From a virus (Duplodnaviria; Caudoviricetes), in IMG/VR virus record IMGVR_UViG_3300032320_000125, positions 1 to 41,016 of that record: a stretch of 41,016 nt of DNA, one strand, 5' to 3'. Positions 1-41,016 of this stretch are shown here, piece after piece. Position numbers and translations under genes: made by a program. The notes under the pieces were generated by a model. That model had not been told where the DNA came from. It searched no databases and saw nothing but the letters and a program-made list of their open reading frames with translations. Position 1 is the first letter of the stretch, and each line of letters starts with the position of its first letter.

Positions 1-123
1 AGGTCCTGCTTCCACGAATCAGAGTTCTTTTCAAATCCGCCTGGAGGTCCAAAGGCGAGGTGTAAGTCCTGATAACGAGGATGGGTGAGTCTGTTCTTTA
101 TGGAGAGCAGGAACTTTTGCGCC
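1..123. repeat. Terminal direct repeat (circular assembly overlap)
   Basis: 1-123 is identical to 40894-41016 and the terminase reading frame runs through the join. Confidence 0.95.
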
Positions 124-617
124 ATAGCCTGGGTTTTAGAAACAACCATGATACGGATGTTAGGGTTTTGGCAAATCCGATATACAGCATAGTTGACCGT
201 AATGGTCGTAGACTTTGCGTGTTCTGGGGGAGTGTTAACGATGAGTAGGTCTTTATCCCCTGGCTCATAAATAATTGAAGGGTGGACATCCGTAGGCACT
301 CTGGATTCCAATAAATCAATCCAATGGCGTTGATGTTCAAAAACTTGAACCCCTAAGTATTTTTTGGAAAAAATCTCAAATGGGGGTACTTCTTCGGTCG
401 GACCGCCTACTTCTCCACGGGCGGTCAGAGAGCGCAGTTTGTCTATACCTGCAGCAAAGTCAGGGTCTGTCTTACGGTAATACTCGTAAGTCTTGACACT
501 TCTCCCAACGGCATCCATGGCTCGTTGGACCGAGTAGCCTTGCATTAAAAAATCTATAATCTGCTTCTTTATAGCATCCGACTTATGGGATGCAGCAGTA
601 ACTCTTTTTCTTTCCAT
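1..617 (-). CDS. terL: Terminase large subunit, 5' part (gene wraps the origin; about 621 aa in total) with N-terminal HTH-like segment
   Basis: Manual translation from ATG 617: MERKRVTAASHKSDAIKKQIIDFLMQGYSVQRAMDAVGRSVKTYEYYRKTDPDF...; Walker A-like PPEHAKST; continues in frame into 40893-39645. Confidence 0.9.
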   Translation of the reverse strand, partial: MERKRVTAASHKSDAIKKQIIDFLMQGYSVQRAMDAVGRSVKTYEYYRKTDPDFAAGIDKLRSLTARGEVGGPTEEVPPFEIFSKKYLGVQVFEHQRHWIDLLESRVPTDVHPSIIYEPGDKDLLIVNTPPEHAKSTTITVNYAVYRICQNPNIRIMVVSKTQAMAQKFLLSIKNRLTHPRYQDLHLAFGPPGGFEKNSDSWKQD

Positions 618-879
618 AGGCGTAGTAGCAATGCGACCTAATGGAAGCATTGCAGTTTATCCTTTCCTAACCGTAGGCTGTAGCCCTAAGGCGGAAGCCG
701 TAGGTTAGGGCAATAACTAGGGGGGCAGCCTAAGGGGCTGCCAGTGTGCTTGCAGTAGGGCGACCATTATTTTGCCCTACATATACTATTAGGTGTCCAG
801 AGGACACTTATTGGACATTTATTTTGTAACTATTTTGCAACGGTTTACCTTTCAGGTAAAACCGCAGGTCAGAGCAGTG

Positions 880-2049: not shown

Positions 2050-2760
2050 ATGAAAACTTACGGAATCGAACTCGAAACAAGCAGCATCTCAATCCGCACC
2101 GCACAATCTGCACTCGATGCAGTCGGTTTAAACTGGTCATGCAAGCCCGATGGAACTCGTGGCGTTGATGCTGAGGCAGTTTCACCAATCCTCAACGATG
2201 GCAGTTTAAACGAGAGCCTCACCGCTGCTCGTGCCCTACTTCGTGCTGGTGCAACCGTTAACCGCCAAACTGGTTACCATGTCCATATCGGCGCTGACCA
2301 TTACGGCGTGGATGGAATCGCTGCAACGGTTCGCAACTGGTACACCGCAGCCAACGCAATCGGCGCACTCGTTGCCAAGTCTCGTTTAAACAATCACTTC
2401 TGCAATCACAACATCAGCGAGGCAGTCATTGACCAGTGGACTGAAAACATCCGCAACGGTTCAATCCGTAACATCGGAGGCAGTCGCTATCAATCACTAA
2501 ATCTCGACTCATACCAACGCCATGGCACAATCGAGTTTCGCCTACACCATGGCACCCTCAACGGTAAGAAAATCCAAGCATGGGCAGAGTTTTGCGAGGC
2601 TATCGCAACCTTCTCAACTGCTGGCGGAATCCTTGATGCAGGAACTGGTGACCGTTTAAACGACATCAAGTCACTGCTTGGCAAGTTAGTTATCAACGAG
2701 GCAATCAAACTCGACACTGCTAACTACCTCAACCAACGAGCAGTCGAACTCAGCGCCTAA
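2050..2760 (+). CDS. Putative amidoligase (COOH-NH2 ligase, Amidoligase_2-like)
   Basis: YGIELE, DGT, EAVSPIL, TGYHVHIG, RYQSLNL, TIEFRLHHGT motifs. Confidence 0.85.
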   Translation: MKTYGIELETSSISIRTAQSALDAVGLNWSCKPDGTRGVDAEAVSPILNDGSLNESLTAARALLRAGATVNRQTGYHVHIGADHYGVDGIAATVRNWYTAANAIGALVAKSRLNNHFCNHNISEAVIDQWTENIRNGSIRNIGGSRYQSLNLDSYQRHGTIEFRLHHGTLNGKKIQAWAEFCEAIATFSTAGGILDAGTGDRLNDIKSLLGKLVINEAIKLDTANYLNQRAVELSA

Positions 2761-2768
2761 CAAGCGCA

Positions 2769-2814
2769 GCCTGCCCCAAGTGGGCAAGCGAGGGAGCGTT
2801 ACCCTCGGCAGGCA
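2769..2814 (+). ncRNA. Candidate tRNA-like mini-structure (acceptor stem + T-arm geometry)
   Basis: 7-bp GCCTGCC/GGCAGGC stem stacked on a 5-bp GAGGG/CCCTC stem with a 7-nt loop; intergenic. Confidence 0.45.
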
Positions 2815-2859
2815 CTGGTACCAAATTGGTACCTTGTTTAAACAGAACGGACTGGAATC

Positions 2860-2955
2860 ATGAACAGCATCAACTACTGGTCAATCGTAGATGGTCGAGT
2901 GCTATTGCTTGGCTTGCTTGCGGTCGGCTTCTATCTATACGGAAAGAGAATATAA
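2860..2955 (+). CDS. 31-aa single-TM membrane peptide (not in ORF track)
   Basis: MNSINYWSIVDGRVLLLGLLAVGFYLYGKRI; GGACTGG leader; fills an operon gap. Confidence 0.6.
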   Translation: MNSINYWSIVDGRVLLLGLLAVGFYLYGKRI

Positions 2956-2959
2956 CAAA

Positions 2960-3106
2960 ATGTTATACATCATCGAGGGCATTGACTTCTATGGTCGGCG
3001 CTTCACTGGTGCATACAACAAAGAGGATGCGGATTACCTTCTTGCATCCGACCGTTTAAACAGGTTGGTAAAAGTTATCAACCCATGTGATACAATTAAC
3101 TCATAA
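2960..3106 (+). CDS. Hypothetical protein (48 aa)
   Basis: ATG 4 nt after the previous stop; MLYIIEGIDFYGRRFTG... Confidence 0.6.
   Translation: MLYIIEGIDFYGRRFTGAYNKEDADYLLASDRLNRLVKVINPCDTINS
3084..3096 (+). promoter_or_regulatory. Putative extended -10 promoter
   Basis: TG-A-TACAAT; CATGTGATACA recurs at 6100-6110. Confidence 0.5.
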
Positions 3107-3132
3107 CAACTAGCAGACTGGAGAAATAAATT

Positions 3133-3936
3133 ATGTGTGGAATCGCAGGCTTCTGCCTTAACCCAAAGCACAATCAGAATCAGACCGACCTTGCAGCACA
3201 GATGCTGCTCGACATCGAACATCGTGGCTACCATGCCACTGGCGCTGCTTGGATTAACCCCAAGTCAGGCAATCGTGTAATCACCAAAGCACCCGTTGCT
3301 GCAACCAAGTTCATCACAACAGATGCAGGCAAGCGACTATGTTTAAACGCACAGACCGCCATCTTGCACACTCGTTGGGCAACTCAGGGTTCGCCAAAGG
3401 TTAACGACAACAACCACCCAATTCCTCGTGGCAAAATCGTGCTCACTCACAACGGACACATCAGCAACGATGACCAATTGTTTAAACAACTCAAGGTCAA
3501 GCGCCATGGTCAGGTAGATAGCGAGGCAGTCGCTGCACTTATCGCCTTCACTGCTGCACCTATCTCCGAGGTACTCTCTCGTGTACAGGGCACCGCTGCC
3601 TTGGCTTGGATTGAACAGGGTAAGGGCAACACATTGCACCTTGCTCGTGTTAACTCATCGCCATTGTGGATTGGTCAGACTGGCACAGGTTCCCTCGTCT
3701 ATGGTTCAACCGAGGAGACTATCGAGAACGCAGCAGTAATGCTGGACTCCAACCTTGACTGGTCATACTCAGCAAACGAGGGTGAATACTTCAAGGTTAA
3801 AGATGGCAGAATCGTAGAGCACAAGAACTTCGAGCCATTTAAACAGGTCTATACAAACAACTGGCGTGGGTTCGGTAGACTAACCGATGCAGAACTCGAC
3901 AAGTATTGGGCTGACCAAGATGAACTAGCCTTCTAA
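3133..3936 (+). CDS. Class II (Ntn) glutamine amidotransferase
   Basis: MCGIAG N-terminal Cys, HRG..ATG, HTRWATQG, NNHP, HNGHI, VDSE. Confidence 0.92.
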   Translation: MCGIAGFCLNPKHNQNQTDLAAQMLLDIEHRGYHATGAAWINPKSGNRVITKAPVAATKFITTDAGKRLCLNAQTAILHTRWATQGSPKVNDNNHPIPRGKIVLTHNGHISNDDQLFKQLKVKRHGQVDSEAVAALIAFTAAPISEVLSRVQGTAALAWIEQGKGNTLHLARVNSSPLWIGQTGTGSLVYGSTEETIENAAVMLDSNLDWSYSANEGEYFKVKDGRIVEHKNFEPFKQVYTNNWRGFGRLTDAELDKYWADQDELAF

Positions 3937-31004: not shown

Positions 31005-34000
31005 CTATCCCAATGTTACTGGGTCGTTTTGAAGAAAGCGGTTATAGAAACTGCTGAACTCTAACGACTCCTGCTTAAGTGTTGCAATTGTTTGATTCCA
31101 CAAACCTTCAAGGTCTGAGTTATCCTCTGCTGTTAATGTACCACTTGCACCGCTTGCCTTACGGCTTGCGAGTTCTCTAGCAATTTGGCTACGGGTTACA
31201 TAGTAAGTAGCAAGTGCTCCAACTACTGGTTTGTTACCGTTATCTTGCATCCATTGTGGGTCACGAAGGATTGTCTCAATAGACTGCATACGGTAAATCC
31301 ATTTACCTTTGTCAACGCTGTAGAAGTCAGCAGCCCAGTCTTTATTGGTTGCTGCTAATTGTTGTGTAAATGCTTGCTTAGCAAGATTAAGTTCCTCGGC
31401 ACCACGCTCTGAATATGCTGTGTAACCTTGAGCAAATAGTTGCTGGTCAAGGTAATCCATAGCCTTGCGGTAATCAATCCAACCCATCTTCTTTTGAGCA
31501 TCTTGCTTGAGAAGTGCTGGGTTACGCTGACCACGGAAATTATCTGTTGAGCCAGGAACTGGAGAGTTACGCATCTGCCATTGGTATGCTGCTTGGCTAA
31601 AGTCATACTTACCATCTGGGTCATTGACTAGGAAGCCAATCATCTCAGGTGTAGTAGTGCCAATCTTTGAGATTAAACCGTTGTACTTTTTAAGGTTAGC
31701 AACGGCAGCCTGTGTAGCATCTACGCCAGTGTTATTAAGTGATGCTGAAATTGTAGCCTCGCCCATTTCTGGGTACATCTGCAAGAACAGAGCATCTGCT
31801 TGAGCACCGTAAGCCTGTTGAATCTTGCGGTACTGCTGTGTATACCAACCCAATGGTGAGTCGTACTGTGCAGCAAAAGGCAAGACAAGATTAGAAAGCA
31901 TTTTGACTCTGTACATGTTATTTGTAAGGTCATTGATTTCTTTAAATGTAGGTTCAGTCTCACGCTCGCCTAAGCGATATTTAATTAGTTCATAACGGTA
32001 AACAGTATTAAATGTTCTTGACCATGAACCATCACGAGTGCCTGACCAAAGTTGTGCAGCCTTTTGGAGTGCAGGTGGCAACAATGTTTTAATTGGTGAA
32101 TCATCTGCGCCAAATGGAATTACTGGGCGTAGCACTGATTCAAAGTCAGGTCGCATTAACTCAAGGTACTGAGCAGGGATGGCAACTACTGGACCAAAGC
32201 CAGCATGTAATTCACCCTGGAACATAACATCAAGTGAGCGAATAGGAATACTTACTTGACTTCCAGCGCTACGAATAGCCTCAGCCAAACCTTTACCGCC
32301 AGGAACTGCCTCCATGGTTTTCATAAAGGTTTCTGGCATAGGCAGAACTAACTTGCTATCGTAACTAAACTTAGTTGATGGGTTACCATCTGCATCAACA
32401 TAGTTATTTTGGTTACTTAAGGAAGAAGTAATCTGACCAGCACGAGCAACTACTACTGGATTTTCTTTTGAAAGAGTAGTCCAACGGCGTACAGAGTTTT
32501 CCCAAGCGTTAAAGAACGGCATCATGTAGCGCATCTTTTCGCCAGCGTATGACTTACGCATGATTGTAAAAAGAGTCTTATTGACTTCTTTACGAGTAGA
32601 TTCAACTGCATCCTTACGGAAAGCGTTAATCTCATCAAGAGTAAGTTCAGCCTTAGGGTCGTTAAGTTGTGAACGCTTAAGTGAAAGAGCAATGTCTCCA
32701 CGCTGCTTCATTTCTGCACGATACACAGCACGAGCCAATGGGTGACGGGCAAGTGTTGTTTCAGGCAATGAGCCTAGGAAATAAAAAGCCTTTTGTACAA
32801 AAGCCTGCGCTGCTCCGCCCACACCTTCAATTTTATTTGAAGTAGGAACTACGCTACCAATGATGTCTGGCATTGATGGCTGGTCTGCAAAGTGTGTACG
32901 AAGGAACATCTCATCTAGTTGGTTATTTCTAAATGCTTCTTGAATCTCAGCATCTGGAAGATAACGAGCATAGGCAGAGTGTAGGTTTCCTACAAAGTCC
33001 TCTGCATCAGTGCCTACATTGAGGCGCTCGCTTGGAACTTTAAAAGCCCTATCATCAATGTTCATCTTGGCTGCATACGCTTTACCTTCTTCGGTTTTGC
33101 GTAGCCATCTAACAACTTGTTCTGGAGTTTGGTTATCCAAAAACTTTTCAATAATTGGGTCAATCTTGTTTTCGTTTGGTGAGCGCCACATGTTGTTTAA
33201 GTAGTTAGCGTAACCATTGAAGTAGCGTGGGTCATTAGATGACAAACGCAATTCTTCCATGCCACCGTAACGAGCAGCAAACAATTGAGATGGAGCATCA
33301 GCCATTAACTTATAGGTGTCAGCGTTATCTGTACGCTGCATGAGAATATCTCCCAATTCACCTTGCGCTGCATCAGGATGCTCAATAACTGTTCCATCAT
33401 AAAGTCTTGTTGTACGCATGCCAGTACCTACTCGTGCTTTTGGTGCGTTTAAACGAGTTTCTTGTACAACACGAGCATCAAGTCTTTGTAAAAGATTTTC
33501 ATGTTTAGCCTTGGCTAGTGAGCCTCTGTCTGCTAATTCACGAACAAGATTGATTACGCCATCGGCGGGATATTTGCCGTTGGCAATGAGGTCTGCGAGT
33601 TCGCTTGTGCTCTGGCTATAACTTGGTCGGCTAAATCCTCTGCGAACGCCCTGCGCTCCGCTGGTGACATCTCCTGCACTGGCTTTTCTGACTTGACCCA
33701 ATGCAAACCCTGCGCTGGCTCCTTCATCACCTGTACCCCCTGTGTTAATAAAAGCATTATCAAAATCTTGCTTGGCTATTCTATCAAGGTCAGCCACTGC
33801 CTGTTGGTTACGAGTCTTGCCAATCTTAACGGCTTTAGCACGGTCTTTAATAACATTAACAGGCTCAGCCCATACTGTAAGAACGCCATTGTCGTTAGGA
33901 GCAACCCATGTTCCAAAGTGGTCTGCACCTTCGAACTTATCAAGGTTGTCCTCAATGTGCTGAATCAATGACTCACGAGCAGCAGGAGAATCAGCAATTA

Positions 34001-37000
34001 CATCATCTAGTTGCATCTGCCAAGTAGCGCCACGAACGGCTACTGAATAACCAGCCTGAGGTACGGCTCCAGTTTGGAGTGCAAATGTTCCACCCTTGTT
34101 GGCTACAGTTGATTGAAGCATATTCATAATACGAGACTCGTTTTTACGAAGTGCCTCAGTGTTACGGATAGTTTCAATACGCTTGCGAGCAAGGTCTGCT
34201 GCTGGGTCCTGTGTAGCAGTTTCAACCATCTTAGGGTCAACAAGAACTGTTGAGCGACCATTAGCCTTAGTGTCAGGAAGTGTTAACTTACCAACGCCAT
34301 TAGCACGCATCCACTCAAGAAGTTCTTTTTCTTTGCCCTTCCAAGAGTCTGGCTTGCGAGCATCAATACCCAATTTCTTAAGTTCTGGGTAATCATCTAA
34401 GCCTAGGCGTACCCGTGAACCAGCAAATGTGCGTAGGTCAACAGGTAAGCCATATACTTTAGATGTAACAACTTGTCCTTGGTTGCCTGGTTTAACAATG
34501 CGAAACTTTCCTTCAAGCAACATCTTTTGAGAAACTGTATCTGGGTCAACAGAACGCCATGTTCCGCCAGGTATGCTAAGTAATTCAACTCTATTACCTT
34601 TAGCAATACTGTTACGGAAACCATCTCGCATATCAGCAGCAATAGTCTGCATAGCCAATGATGGCTTACGGACTCCGCCTTCTCTAATAAGTTGACCTTC
34701 TGCATTACGAAGGTTCTTAGGCATTGTGTACGCACGACCAGTTTGGCGTTTGTAAATGTCAGATGCAGAGATAGTCTTTATGCCTGCTTCGGCATAGCGG
34801 TTTGCTATGTCATCAGAGTATGTCATCGCCAATGGGCGGTTAGGATTTAATCCAGTAAGAGCAGTAGGTGAACCATGATGCAGAATCTCACCTGTGCGGT
34901 AAGAAGAAATGCTAAGGAACTCAAGAGCCTGTTCTTCTGTTAACTTGCCTCGTTTAAACGCAAGTTCAACTGCTTCCATCTGGTCATCAATTTCCTTATT
35001 AAGGCTATTGATTTGAGCACGCTCAGCCTGAGTTCTTGTAAGTTCTGTGCGAAGCGCAACTGAATCTTCACGAATACCTTTTTTAACAAGGTTCTTATCT
35101 GTAAGTCGTTCTAAACCAATGATGCGGTTTTCGTACCACTTTGCAGCGCCTTCTTTACTAATGTCAGCAGCAGCAACAAGTCCATATCCCTTTGCAAGAA
35201 TAGACATAGTTGCTTCGGCGGTGTTACGCACTGTGTAACCAAGGCGTAGAAGTACAGAAGCCTTCCATACATCGTTAAGTAGACCCATAACATAACGGTC
35301 ACGGTCTGGGTCAACGATGCCATGGCTACCTTCGATAGCCTGAATCAGTCCCTTGTTTTCTTTCATAACACGAGCGTAGTTTTCAAGGTCAACCATCGGC
35401 AGTGCGTTAGCACCTTGGCGCTCTAAGTAAGGAACTTTAAGAATAACATTGTCGTCAGTCATCAAGAACTTACGGTCACGGATTGCATCCATGCCCACCT
35501 TACGGCGACCTTTGTATGCGTTCCAAATAATGGCAGCAGTCTCATCAGATATACCTAGGCTCTGATTCAATTGCGCTACAGCAAAATCTTCAAAAGAAGT
35601 CGCTACACGAGCACGAGCCTCAGGAACATCTCCTGCTTTAATAAATAAATCAAAGTGGTCAGTGATGGTTGTATCTGCAGTTGGACCAACTAGGTTACGC
35701 AGCATGCCACCAAAGGCTTTCATTTCATTAAACGAATCTGAATCGTTAGCATTGAAATAACCAGCAGGGCGCTCGCCTGCCCAGCGTTCAGCAAAGTTAA
35801 TTACTGCAACTACTGGATGATACTTAGTTGGCTGGAAAATACCAAAAGTTGGATATGCAGTTGGTGAAGGTTGTTCTCCCAAAGCACGGGCTGTCTTACG
35901 CTCAGCCTGGCGAATTGCACTCTTTCCAGCAATGGATGGTGCAAAAGTGCGCTTAGTTAAATCAGCACCCTTTTCAGTTAACTTGGTTAGGTACTGAATA
36001 TATGGGTCCTCGTCAGCAAGTTTAACTAAAGCCTGTGCTGCTTCAAGTAAGTTCTCATCTTGAACAATACCGTTAGTAGGTATGTTGTTGACAATCTTCT
36101 TATCTAATTCAGATACTGTTTTAAGTCTGTCATATACAAATGCCAAGTCTTTACGCTTTGCAACAAGACGAGCCATTGCTTCTGTGTCTTTAGCGGAGAC
36201 AGCAAGTAGTGTATCTGCAACATCATCTACAGTGTTTGCTTCACTAAGCAGATATGTCATTGTATCTGCATCATTAGATGCCTCAATCACTGGGTGATTG
36301 CGGATTGTTAAACCTTTGTTATCAGCAAGGAATTGAAGTGTGTTGTTTAAACCACCCTCTGCTGTACGACCTTCGTTAATTTTTGTAGCCAAAGTCTGAG
36401 GAGAAATAATTGTTACTCCACGAATACTCTTTGGCATAAAGAAATCTTTAGCAAGAGATGTAGCGTTAGCATCTACAGCACCCATTGGGCGTGTAACTAA
36501 GGCTTTACGAGCAAGTCCAATACCTTTACCCAACTTACCAAGTGGGTCAGTTACCGTAGTAAAAACTGTGTCATAGGCACCTGATATGGTGCGATACTGC
36601 CAGTTAGTATCAAAGATTTCACGGTCATTTGGGTCAAAGATATTAAAATCGCCACGAAGTTCAGACTTCATTGGGTCAAAGCGTGATTGCAAATAAGCAA
36701 GTGCTTGACCTGCTGAAATCTCTTTGCGTTGGTTGTACGCTTCTTGGAAGTTACCTGTAGCAAGACCAGTTAAACCTGCAGATAATGGCTCACGAAGTGC
36801 TGTACCACCAGCCTTGTAAGATGCTTCAAATACTGGAAGAACTACCTTATTAAGTGCGCCACCTACAGCCTTACGGGGTAGATATGTAGCACCTGCAGCG
36901 GTTACTTTAAATGTATCGCCAAGTAATTGAAAGGCATCGCCTACCCAAGACTTATCGTTAGTGGTAACAGAGGCAAGGTCCTGCATTGCAGTAGCCAAAC

Positions 37001-37061
37001 CAATGTCTCTACCGAAATCGTTTGTATTAGCCCATCTACCAATGTTTTCTAGGAACCCCAT
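31005..37061 (-). CDS. Giant (2018 aa) internal virion / polyvalent-type protein
   Basis: Size, helical scaffold, central inserted domains (HHGS ART-like motif); position after the portal. Confidence 0.7.
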   Translation of the reverse strand: MGFLENIGRWANTNDFGRDIGLATAMQDLASVTTNDKSWVGDAFQLLGDTFKVTAAGATYLPRKAVGGALNKVVLPVFEASYKAGGTALREPLSAGLTGLATGNFQEAYNQRKEISAGQALAYLQSRFDPMKSELRGDFNIFDPNDREIFDTNWQYRTISGAYDTVFTTVTDPLGKLGKGIGLARKALVTRPMGAVDANATSLAKDFFMPKSIRGVTIISPQTLATKINEGRTAEGGLNNTLQFLADNKGLTIRNHPVIEASNDADTMTYLLSEANTVDDVADTLLAVSAKDTEAMARLVAKRKDLAFVYDRLKTVSELDKKIVNNIPTNGIVQDENLLEAAQALVKLADEDPYIQYLTKLTEKGADLTKRTFAPSIAGKSAIRQAERKTARALGEQPSPTAYPTFGIFQPTKYHPVVAVINFAERWAGERPAGYFNANDSDSFNEMKAFGGMLRNLVGPTADTTITDHFDLFIKAGDVPEARARVATSFEDFAVAQLNQSLGISDETAAIIWNAYKGRRKVGMDAIRDRKFLMTDDNVILKVPYLERQGANALPMVDLENYARVMKENKGLIQAIEGSHGIVDPDRDRYVMGLLNDVWKASVLLRLGYTVRNTAEATMSILAKGYGLVAAADISKEGAAKWYENRIIGLERLTDKNLVKKGIREDSVALRTELTRTQAERAQINSLNKEIDDQMEAVELAFKRGKLTEEQALEFLSISSYRTGEILHHGSPTALTGLNPNRPLAMTYSDDIANRYAEAGIKTISASDIYKRQTGRAYTMPKNLRNAEGQLIREGGVRKPSLAMQTIAADMRDGFRNSIAKGNRVELLSIPGGTWRSVDPDTVSQKMLLEGKFRIVKPGNQGQVVTSKVYGLPVDLRTFAGSRVRLGLDDYPELKKLGIDARKPDSWKGKEKELLEWMRANGVGKLTLPDTKANGRSTVLVDPKMVETATQDPAADLARKRIETIRNTEALRKNESRIMNMLQSTVANKGGTFALQTGAVPQAGYSVAVRGATWQMQLDDVIADSPAARESLIQHIEDNLDKFEGADHFGTWVAPNDNGVLTVWAEPVNVIKDRAKAVKIGKTRNQQAVADLDRIAKQDFDNAFINTGGTGDEGASAGFALGQVRKASAGDVTSGAQGVRRGFSRPSYSQSTSELADLIANGKYPADGVINLVRELADRGSLAKAKHENLLQRLDARVVQETRLNAPKARVGTGMRTTRLYDGTVIEHPDAAQGELGDILMQRTDNADTYKLMADAPSQLFAARYGGMEELRLSSNDPRYFNGYANYLNNMWRSPNENKIDPIIEKFLDNQTPEQVVRWLRKTEEGKAYAAKMNIDDRAFKVPSERLNVGTDAEDFVGNLHSAYARYLPDAEIQEAFRNNQLDEMFLRTHFADQPSMPDIIGSVVPTSNKIEGVGGAAQAFVQKAFYFLGSLPETTLARHPLARAVYRAEMKQRGDIALSLKRSQLNDPKAELTLDEINAFRKDAVESTRKEVNKTLFTIMRKSYAGEKMRYMMPFFNAWENSVRRWTTLSKENPVVVARAGQITSSLSNQNNYVDADGNPSTKFSYDSKLVLPMPETFMKTMEAVPGGKGLAEAIRSAGSQVSIPIRSLDVMFQGELHAGFGPVVAIPAQYLELMRPDFESVLRPVIPFGADDSPIKTLLPPALQKAAQLWSGTRDGSWSRTFNTVYRYELIKYRLGERETEPTFKEINDLTNNMYRVKMLSNLVLPFAAQYDSPLGWYTQQYRKIQQAYGAQADALFLQMYPEMGEATISASLNNTGVDATQAAVANLKKYNGLISKIGTTTPEMIGFLVNDPDGKYDFSQAAYQWQMRNSPVPGSTDNFRGQRNPALLKQDAQKKMGWIDYRKAMDYLDQQLFAQGYTAYSERGAEELNLAKQAFTQQLAATNKDWAADFYSVDKGKWIYRMQSIETILRDPQWMQDNGNKPVVGALATYYVTRSQIARELASRKASGASGTLTAEDNSDLEGLWNQTIATLKQESLEFSSFYNRFLQNDPVTLG
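33554..33727 (-). CDS. Candidate nested +1-frame gene (57 aa)
   Basis: GGGGG 8 nt before ATG; MKEPAQGLHWVKSEKPVQEMSPAERRAFAEDLADQVIARAQAN... Confidence 0.45.
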   Translation of the reverse strand: MKEPAQGLHWVKSEKPVQEMSPAERRAFAEDLADQVIARAQANSQTSLPTANIPPMA

Positions 37062-39644: not shown

Positions 39645-41016
39645 TCATTGTGTATATGCGTAATCATTTAAGTTAACGGTCATTTGTTGGTTTCTATCAT
39701 GTCTTGTTTGGAACATGTTGAACGAGTTATGTGTACGGGCAAACATGCTTGCGTTGGCAACCCTGTCTCGTACGGCTAGTTCTGCAAACCAGAACGCCAT
39801 AACACAGTCGGTCTTTTGGCTGCGTGGAGCCTCTGGGTACCAAGTAACCAGTTGCTCTATCAAAGCCTTTAAGCCTTCGGATTGATGTGTAGATGGGAAC
39901 TCAATAAGGTTTAAACCTTCTTCATAACCATGAAACAATGTAGTAAGAGATGCCACACCAAAGTCTGTATCCCATTTATTGTTTCCAGTATGATGTTCTT
40001 TGAGTGTGGCACCCCTTGTTTGTAGGTATTCTCGTACCTCACGGTCCTGGGTGAGCATTGCTTGAAATGCATTTTTCTCTACACGCCACTCAGAAATTGA
40101 ATACTTGTCTGTCCAGTCTTTAATTAAAGTTCTAATGTCATCAGGTTTCATACCCTGTTGGTTTGACACATCAAGCACATACCTCTTTTGGGTAGAAACA
40201 TCAATGCCAATACACACAGCAGCGGTATACCCAGCCATGGCGGGGTCGAGTCCAGCGACCACAATAAGACCATCCATGCCGCTATGTCGGTTGCCAGCCT
40301 TATTCTTGGGGATGACACCAATGTTACGAGCACCGTTAATAACGCCCTTGACTGCTTCTTGTGGGAAAGCGCTATCTTCGTGAACTTGCTGTTGCTGATA
40401 AACCATAGCCCAGAGATTGGGCGACATGCGACTGCGTTTTTTAGTAAGCGCCTCACCTGTCCACTTGTCGTACAAACCATTAGCATCTGGTACACCATTA
40501 CCAGACACTGGGGGCATATTGGTTTTAGCCCAAAGGGTAACCCAATCCTTCGGTTCATCGGCAAACTCCAATACCGCAGGTTGAGCGAAATAAGTCCAAG
40601 GAGAAGTTTCGTCTGGATAACGCATGGGGTCACGGAGTTCGGAATATAAATCCTTAGGGCGTAATCTTGTGCCCACTACCAGTAACTTACCGCCATCGTA
40701 ATCAATACGAGACATAACTTCTGATTGAATCCAGTCAATCTGTTTTTCATACTCATGGGCATTGGTGTGGTCAACACAGTCATCCATGATGATTAGGTCA
40801 GCACGGGCACCGTAGATATGTCCACGAATACCAATAGCCTGAACCGTTGGGTCTTTTTCACCAGAGTCACGAGACTCGGATGATAGGTAAATAAGGTCCT
40901 GCTTCCACGAATCAGAGTTCTTTTCAAATCCGCCTGGAGGTCCAAAGGCGAGGTGTAAGTCCTGATAACGAGGATGGGTGAGTCTGTTCTTTATGGAGAG
41001 CAGGAACTTTTGCGCC
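39645..41016 (-). CDS. terL: Terminase large subunit, 3' part
   Basis: GARADLIIMDD Walker B, VVGTR, YQQ, GLDPA, VEKNAFQ, DCVMA nuclease motifs. Confidence 0.92.
   Translation of the reverse strand, partial: AQKFLLSIKNRLTHPRYQDLHLAFGPPGGFEKNSDSWKQDLIYLSSESRDSGEKDPTVQAIGIRGHIYGARADLIIMDDCVDHTNAHEYEKQIDWIQSEVMSRIDYDGGKLLVVGTRLRPKDLYSELRDPMRYPDETSPWTYFAQPAVLEFADEPKDWVTLWAKTNMPPVSGNGVPDANGLYDKWTGEALTKKRSRMSPNLWAMVYQQQQVHEDSAFPQEAVKGVINGARNIGVIPKNKAGNRHSGMDGLIVVAGLDPAMAGYTAAVCIGIDVSTQKRYVLDVSNQQGMKPDDIRTLIKDWTDKYSISEWRVEKNAFQAMLTQDREVREYLQTRGATLKEHHTGNNKWDTDFGVASLTTLFHGYEEGLNLIEFPSTHQSEGLKALIEQLVTWYPEAPRSQKTDCVMAFWFAELAVRDRVANASMFARTHNSFNMFQTRHDRNQQMTVNLNDYAYTQ

What the first reader, a model, noticed from the sequence alone, without database searches (positions are those of the whole stretch)
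33554..33727. Overprinted gene nested in the giant virion protein, directly after a putative effector domain
Seen: a same-strand +1-frame ORF with an SD-like GGGGG and an amphipathic helix (EMSPAERRAFAEDLADQVIARA). Across this interval the host frame becomes linker-like (GQVRKASAGDVTSGAQGVRRGFSRPSYSQSTS) and shifts to AGC/GCC/GGC/CTC codons unlike the rest of the gene. Inference: an inhibitor or immunity peptide for the adjacent domain during virion assembly.
Basis: partly seen in the sequence, partly recalled or inferred. Interest (0 to 1): 0.7.

Follow-up and report, generated by a model that had tools for sequence, protein, structure and literature searches.

The report
Hidden partner gene inside virion protein
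A 57-codon gene lies hidden in a second reading frame inside a freshwater phage's giant protein gene, right behind a mobile domain it travels with across many unrelated phage and bacterial genes, and it likely encodes a small inhibitor that keeps that putative toxin-like domain quiet in the cell that makes it.

Summary
The nested ORF is real (minus strand 33727..33554, +1 frame in a 2018-aa gene). It is intact, with its start, in 65 of 65 relatives; the start moved two codons in 15. Across its first 40 codons selection follows the +1 frame, not the host frame. The origin is the reverse of 'overprinted': the small gene is an old free-standing partner of the upstream 127-aa domain (uncharacterised family ending in TGGTG, 7,931 clusters), and the host linker was read through it after the cassette was fused into the protein. 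Homologous partners follow the domain as free genes (also behind a WXG100-like gene in actinomycete chromosomes) and as +1 nested genes in 23 domain clusters of unrelated multidomain proteins. Domain and nested start were lost together in three separate relatives, never alone (75 loci). Co-folding gives weak support (0.50, best control 0.01). An inhibitor/immunity role is inferred: the domain's activity is unknown, nothing shows translation, and 69 of 99 domain clusters lack this partner. No paper found in 9 searches.

The parts
31005..37061 (-). Giant 2018-aa host gene in the structural module (between portal and major capsid genes); a multidomain, likely virion-packaged/ejected protein
   Evidence: ORF; phrog_10618; C-terminal third about 25% identical to a hypothetical protein (gp9/gp10 where numbered) of Streptomyces phages; some relatives carry an extra ADP-ribosyltransferase domain inside it (PF03496 in 3 of 3 tested). 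Virion location inferred.
33729..34109 (-). Mobile 'TGGTG domain' (host aa 985-1111), putative effector; conserved G-x-W, D/E, NQ, D and C-terminal TGGTG
   Evidence: phrog_17808; 7,931 representatives at E<=1e-3; AF2 pLDDT 95; no Pfam/NCBIfam/PADLOC family; no clear PDB fold; conservation over 164 rows
33736..33740 (-). Shine-Dalgarno-like GGGGG carried by the Gly-Gly codons of TGGTG; GGAGG or similar in relatives
   Evidence: GGAGG plus start codon in 19 of 30 partner-bearing versus 7 of 69 partner-less domain clusters
33554..33727 (-). Nested +1-frame gene, 57 aa
   Evidence: intact in 65 of 65 loci; homologous free genes and nested copies elsewhere
33608..33727 (-). Functional core of the nested protein (aa 1-40: LHWVK segment, M-x-x-x-E-R-x-x-F-A-x-x-L-A helix), under +1-frame selection
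   Evidence: host synonymous difference 0.11 versus 0.43-0.44 in flanks; codon position 1/3 ratio 1.69 versus at most 0.75 outside
33554..33607 (-). Tail of the nested ORF (aa 41-57), shaped by the host frame, likely non-functional extension
   Evidence: host synonymous difference 0.39, +1 amino-acid difference 0.57; low pLDDT; absent in free-standing homologues P0025/P0026
33630..34160 (-). Approximate span of the cassette (domain plus nested start and core) that is missing in the close relative L231/L244

Best explanation
The 57-codon ORF is a conserved gene nested in the +1 frame of the giant protein gene, and it likely encodes a small inhibitor (immunity-type partner) that binds the putative effector domain encoded just upstream. 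Shown: the domain and the small gene form a mobile two-gene cassette; the ribosome-binding-like GGAGG/GGGGG and the start codon sit in the domain's last codons (TGGTG-D); where the cassette lies inside a larger protein the host frame runs on through the small gene as a Gly/Arg/Ser-rich linker, and in the giant-protein clade the small gene stays under selection. Inferred: ribosomes start at the internal site during late expression, the peptide (a short extended segment plus an amphipathic helix) binds the domain and keeps it inactive while the giant protein is made and packaged, and the domain would act only after ejection into the next cell, where no peptide is present. The domain's own activity is unknown; an enzymatic effector is the most likely reading.
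For: Intact frame with start in 65 of 65 loci down to 44% domain identity; start moved two codons in 15, in 4 as ATG-TAG-ATG, with GGAG at 6 nt. Frame-specific selection in 48 unique sequences: host synonymous difference 0.114 vs 0.43-0.44; +1 amino-acid difference 0.349 vs host 0.474; position 1/3 ratio 1.69 vs max 0.75 in 37 outside windows. Among 75 orthologues, 69 have both parts, 6 neither, none only one; three separate deletions remove domain and nested start together and the +1 core decays. A profile of only the giant-protein peptides ranks 23 +1 frames first among 156 frames behind other domain copies, 4 unrelated ones at E<=1.1e-5. In 111 metagenome loci the partner profile hits 36 +1 frames, one +2 frame (free gene), no host frame and none of 333 reverse frames; 13 of the 36 share no 8-mer with the training rows. 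Free-standing partners: L173, L433, L439, P0025/P0026. Toxin-immunity gene order in actinomycete chromosomes: WXG100_2 gene (Pfam tested in L321), domain, partner in 8 of 9 matching genomes. The domain co-occurs in proteins with MuF, XkdF protease, ADP-ribosyltransferase, Zeta, HNH, papain-fold and NUDIX domains (63 proteins scanned). Co-fold: weak support, score 0.50, best of 3 controls 0.01, partner pLDDT at least 62, runs agree in at least 70% of contacts; at 0.60 or under the mark was reached by 18 of 157 solved complexes and by both mismatches that passed, of 215.
Against: 69 of 99 domain clusters have no recognisable partner of this family, including 23 where the domain is internal; solo copies in Arthrobacter/Microbacterium phages and L450 end without TGGTG, and no partner was seen behind L024 or L450, so the domain is not always guarded by this peptide. 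No toxic or enzymatic activity is known for the domain and no family or fold assigns one. In the actinomycete loci the WXG100-like ORF and the domain ORF are in different frames, unlike a classic fused polymorphic toxin. The co-fold pass is weak and says nothing about inhibition versus activation. Translation and virion location are not shown. Sampling by DNA pattern is biased to TGGTG-bearing copies, and related sequences are not independent.
Confidence: 0.55

Rival explanations
1. The nested peptide is translated and binds the domain, but as an activator, folding chaperone, second subunit or capsid-loading adaptor rather than an inhibitor.
For: All linkage, co-loss and co-fold evidence fits equally. 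Partner-like sequence occurs fused in frame behind the domain in P0093 and L168/L170/L213 (weak scores 4.5-9.8 bits), which suits a subunit.
Against: Many copies lack it. The gene order domain then small coupled gene is typical of toxin-immunity pairs (PMC5576092, PMC10654092 passages). The domain is predicted to fold well alone (pLDDT 95).
Confidence: 0.22
2. The peptide is a functional small protein that travels with the domain as a coupled neighbour but acts on another target (host or phage), without binding the domain.
For: Other unrelated small-gene families also follow terminal copies of the domain. The co-fold is only weak.
Against: It is kept at the cost of dual coding in 23 domain clusters and lost with the domain three times; the co-fold is 0.49 above the best control.
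Confidence: 0.1
3. The +1 frame is entered by programmed frameshifting from the host frame, giving a shortened giant protein that ends in domain plus helix, not a separate peptide.
For: Natural in-frame domain-partner-like fusions exist (P0093, L170).
Against: Start codon and SD are kept and move together; four loci have a stop directly before the moved ATG; free-standing partners have their own SD and start.
Confidence: 0.06
4. The ORF is an untranslated relic of the captured cassette, or the conservation reflects an RNA/DNA element.
For: No expression data. A single open frame of this length is not rare.
Against: Variation falls on host codon position 1 and spares positions 2-3, the signature of +1 coding; no RNA structure signal (z 0.08); the frame decays once the domain is deleted.
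Confidence: 0.05

Closest known systems
MuF-type phage polymorphic toxins with downstream immunity ORFs (PMC5576092, passages read)
   Same: Phage head-associated protein with an effector domain followed by a short ORF; the TGGTG domain occurs in MuF proteins (P0161, P0171).
   Different: There the toxin is C-terminal and the small ORF is a separate downstream gene; here the domain is internal and the partner is nested in the +1 frame of the same gene. The window protein has no MuF domain. Toxicity is not shown.
WXG100/T7SS polymorphic toxin-immunity cassettes, e.g. PEST systems (PMC10654092, passages read)
   Same: Order WXG100-like gene, effector-position domain, small gene in actinomycete chromosomes.
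   Different: The WXG100_2 ORF and domain ORF are out of frame in those loci; the window's copy is in a phage structural gene with no WXG100 part.
Phage polyvalent proteins (PMC5512222, abstract, outline and passages read)
   Same: Giant multidomain protein in a virion module with swappable domains (ART insert in some relatives; cassette present or absent).
   Different: No named polyvalent domain hit in Pfam; 'overlapping' does not occur in that paper's main text; its supplements could not be read.
Nested phage genes such as lambda Rz1 in Rz or phiX174 E in D (recalled, no call)
   Same: Same-strand out-of-frame small gene with its own start inside a larger gene; Rz1 is a binding partner of its host protein.
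   Different: Those are single fixed arrangements; here a mobile two-gene cassette yields nesting repeatedly in unrelated host proteins, and the small gene appears older than the frame over it.
Phage SAM lyases (T3 SAMase, Svi3-3; PMC7877911, PMC12255297 passages read)
   Same: Similar order of conserved residues (G-x-aromatic, acidic residue, helix, Gln); the T3 enzyme appears among the weak structural rows (Z 3.1, rmsd 5.6, 94 aligned).
   Different: No PF23780 hit, profile comparison probability 0.1%; only a lead.

Membership tests
Same-strand nested protein-coding gene | Open frame with start and stop kept across relatives | tested here: met
   65 of 65 loci
Same-strand nested protein-coding gene | Selection specific to the alternative frame | tested here: met
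Same-strand nested protein-coding gene | Translation shown | not testable with these tools
   needs ribosome profiling or proteomics
De novo overprinted gene (new frame on an older gene) | Nested frame is younger than, and restricted to, the host gene | tested here: not met
   free-standing homologues and copies in unrelated host proteins
Polymorphic toxin-immunity pair | Small gene directly after the effector domain, co-inherited | tested here: met
   69 both, 6 neither, 0 discordant of 75 in this clade; family-wide only 30 of 99 clusters
Polymorphic toxin-immunity pair | Domain found with several trafficking/virion domains | tested here: met
   MuF, XkdF protease in the same proteins; WXG100_2 as adjacent gene
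Polymorphic toxin-immunity pair | Effector at the C-terminus of the carrier | tested here: not met
   internal in the window; terminal in 39, internal in 110 of 150 hits
Polymorphic toxin-immunity pair | Immunity protein binds the domain | tested here: inconclusive
   weak support, 0.50 vs best control 0.01
Polymorphic toxin-immunity pair | Domain is toxic and is neutralised | not testable with these tools
   bench test needed
MuF toxin | N-terminal MuF domain | tested here: not met
   no Pfam hit in the window protein
SAM lyase (PF23780) | Sequence profile match | tested here: not met
   control T3 protein hits PF23780 at 6e-42
SAM lyase (PF23780) | Ferredoxin-like fold, trimer, Gly/Glu/Gln site | tested here: inconclusive
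   Z 3.1, rmsd 5.6, 94 aligned, tied with unrelated rows; trimer not tested
Polyvalent virion protein | Multiple disparate swappable domains, in a virion gene context | tested here: met
Polyvalent virion protein | Packaged and injected | not testable with these tools
   virion proteomics needed

The most novel reading that the evidence does not exclude
A widespread, unannotated class of phage effector-immunity cassettes in which the immunity gene survives fusion into the middle of polyvalent proteins by becoming a +1 nested gene, using a ribosome-binding site written into the effector's conserved last codons. About half of internal copies of a 7,900-cluster uncharacterised domain family would hide such a gene, and low-complexity Gly/Arg linkers behind other effector domains would mark further hidden inhibitors.
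Probability: 0.45. Interest if true: 0.82.

Novelty: new variant of a known kind. Interest (0 to 1): 0.72.

Why it matters
It answers a practical puzzle about polyvalent phage proteins: how an effector placed mid-protein can keep a cognate inhibitor. It shows a repeatable route to overlapping genes in which the larger gene's frame is the new one. It names a large uncharacterised effector-like domain family and hands over its likely partner, so toxicity and neutralisation can be tested directly with a 127-aa domain and a 40-aa peptide. Gene callers miss these nested genes, so the linker 'shadow' gives a way to search for more.

Tried and rejected
Pfam, PHROGs, NCBIfam and PADLOC gave no named family for the domain or peptide (only unnamed phrog_17808/3170 for the domain). 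Foldseek and VIA-align against PDB gave no clear fold; BFVD gave 22 hits at E<=0.001, none assigning a function to the matched part; PDB sequence search none. ESM Atlas: only hypothetical viral clusters for the domain, no usable hit for the peptide. SAM-lyase idea (recalled motif): not supported by profile comparison, inconclusive by fold. RNA structure as cause of conservation: z 0.08. The four apparent 'broken' nested ORFs were moved starts. L267 was a false 'neither' caused by a host frameshift downstream. The tally (35 of 52) is circular because many rows were in the profile; searches are the fairer tests. The shadow-motif count (56 of 110 vs 28 of 1631) used a pattern written after seeing the data. 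Earlier-findings look-ups returned nothing. Literature: 9 searches found no paper on this domain, partner or nesting; the supplements of PMC5512222 and the candidate tables of bioRxiv 10.1101/2021.10.19.465003 were not seen and could list the domain.

Full report
Observation. The window is a 41-kb virus record with terminase, portal, capsid and tail genes and a WhiB gene; WhiB points to an actinobacterial host (PMC6802176 passages), and holders are freshwater metagenomes. The ORF is on the minus strand, 33727..33554, 57 aa, +1 frame inside the 2018-aa gene 31005-37061. GGGGG lies 8 nt before the ATG. The host codon shift is real: 15 of 58 against 80 of 1960 codons for AGC/GCC/GGC/CTC, and the lowest synonymous-codon score of the gene. 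AlphaFold2 predicts a helix at 22-46. The ORF alone is not remarkable: four longer +1 runs exist and recoding nulls leave it open 5-30% of the time.

Conservation. A domain-profile scan gave 66 loci; one was truncated and left out. In 65 of 65 the +1 ORF is intact (54-61 codons from the usual position): 50 start at the usual ATG, 11 at an ATG two codons later, 4 at ATG-TAG-ATG, with GGAG 6 nt before the moved start. One locus has a host frameshift further downstream (L078); L052 has a shorter host ORF that I did not examine. In 48 unique sequences, host synonymous difference drops to 0.114 over nested codons 1-40 against 0.43-0.44 in flanks. The +1 frame is more conserved than the host there (0.349 vs 0.474), and the position 1/position 3 ratio is 1.69 against at most 0.75 in 37 outside windows. 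The last 17 codons follow the host frame. No RNA structure signal was found. These sequences are related, so they are not independent draws.

Co-loss. Searching with the region downstream gave 78 loci (best 80 of 115 kept); 3 were too short. Of 75, 69 have domain and nested ORF (68 by score plus L267, miscalled through a frameshift), 6 have neither, none has one only. Three of the six are separate in-frame deletions in relatives at 93%, 75% and 57% identity that remove the domain and the nested start, after which the +1 core decays; three are distant (31-32%) orthologues without the cassette.

The upstream domain. Host aa 985-1111 is a compact alpha/beta domain (pLDDT 95) of a large unnamed family (7,931 representatives), conserved at G-x-W, D/E, NQ, D and TGGTG (164 rows). 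It is terminal in 39 and internal in 110 of 150 top hits. In 63 scanned proteins it accompanies MuF, XkdF protease, ADP-ribosyltransferase, Zeta, HNH, papain-fold, NUDIX and DUF7178 domains. No library or fold names it. A SAM-lyase likeness (recalled lead; residues from PMC7877911 passages) stays inconclusive.

The partner is a family. A DNA pattern for the domain's end gave 63 viral loci, 52 unique. A profile built only from giant-protein peptides ranked 23 +1 frames above every other frame, 3 from the same clade and 4 unrelated at E<=1.1e-5. A broader profile on 111 usable metagenome loci (of 119) hit 36 +1 frames, one +2 frame, no host frame and none of 333 reverse frames; 13 of the 36 share no 8-mer with training rows. 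Pooled and clustered at 80%: 99 clusters, 30 with partner (23 nested in a continuing host frame, 7 terminal or short), 69 without; GGAGG plus start in 19 of 30 against 7 of 69. Free-standing partners exist (L173, L433, L439; P0025, P0026). Among 301 genomes of the order of a Nonomuraea record, 9 hold the domain; 8 have GGAGG-GTG and the partner overlapping the domain's stop, and one is a solo copy without TGGTG or partner. A WXG100_2 gene lies directly upstream (Pfam-tested in L321 only; similar ORFs seen by eye in five others), out of frame with the domain. Thus the small gene predates its nesting: when the cassette is fused into a protein, the host frame reads through it, leaving the Gly/Arg-rich 'DDGRGDRRVR'-type linker seen behind many internal copies.

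Binding. Co-folding domain and peptide 1-46 gave weak support: 0.50, best of 3 controls 0.01, partner pLDDT at least 62, at least 70% contact agreement; at 0.60 or under only 18 of 157 solved complexes and both passing mismatches (of 215) reached the mark.

Mechanism. Shown: cassette, nesting, selection, co-loss. Inferred: internal initiation, binding, inhibition during late expression and packaging, release of activity after ejection. The immunity reading rests on gene order known from MuF toxins (89.4% followed by a small ORF; PMC5576092 passages) and PEST cassettes (PMC10654092 passages). Against it: most clusters lack this partner, solo phage copies exist, and no activity is known. I put inhibitor at 0.55, other binding partner 0.22, non-binding neighbour 0.10, frameshift product 0.06, relic 0.05; that the nested gene is a real coding gene, about 0.93.

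Novelty. Toxin-immunity pairs, polyvalent proteins (PMC5512222 abstract, outline and passages) and nested phage genes (recalled) are known. Nine searches found no report of this domain, this partner, or repeated nesting of a partner gene inside polyvalent proteins. The library lacks most subscription papers; supplements of PMC5512222 and of bioRxiv 10.1101/2021.10.19.465003 (passages only) were not seen. PMC12255297 was read in passages; other listed papers were seen as search listings only. Verdict: real, new variant of a known kind, interest 0.72.

Noticed in passing
window ~34224-34880 (-); L028:4681-5430, L231:2501-3400, L085:4441-6000: Relatives of about 2230-2260 aa carry an ADP-ribosyltransferase domain (PF03496, 3 of 3 tested) inserted in a region that in the window begins LHHGSP and may itself be a split ART-like fold (motif-level impression; no Pfam hit). 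A second swappable module in the same protein.
   Followed up: partly
L321:2349-3771 and L442-L449: Actinomycete chromosomal locus YbaB-like, small gene, WXG100_2, domain, partner; the WXG100_2 ORF and domain ORF overlap out of frame at the same place in several genomes, possibly a programmed frameshift or coupled genes.
   Followed up: partly
L167, L186, L222, L342, L347, L354, L370, L399, L424 (after the domain stop): A different recurrent small gene (..LANGHPKS..GANGPPTTG) follows terminal domain copies.
   Followed up: no
L193, L324, L327, L350, L372, L410, L421, L428, L441: A further small-gene family (FQKKYPT..MS.EEID.LI) follows terminal copies with its own AGGAGG; weakly similar to the partner helix (up to 12 bits).
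   Followed up: partly
P0093, L168, L170, L213 (host frame after TGGTG): Partner-like sequence in frame with the domain: possible natural fusions; scores weak.
   Followed up: partly
P0006-P0023 N-termini; host linkers such as KH..HDQ..HG.W after the nested region in L174, L176, L226: Repeated short motifs (NHD..GRF, H.Q..HG.W, RSEAGRYAA) flank the domains in these multidomain proteins and look like capsid-loading or processing signals (recalled resemblance).
   Followed up: no
L024-L027, L450: Solo copies in Arthrobacter/Microbacterium phages and one actinomycete genome end without TGGTG; no partner seen behind the two examined (L024, L450).
   Followed up: partly
L078/L267 about 90 codons after the domain: Host frame broken by a frameshift (real or assembly error); nested ORF intact.
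   Followed up: partly
window 3-650 and 39645-41016 (-): Terminase large-subunit pieces at both ends: the record is likely a circularly permuted whole genome.
   Followed up: no
window 2050-3936 (+): Amidoligase and glutamine amidotransferase genes side by side (PHROGs).
   Followed up: no
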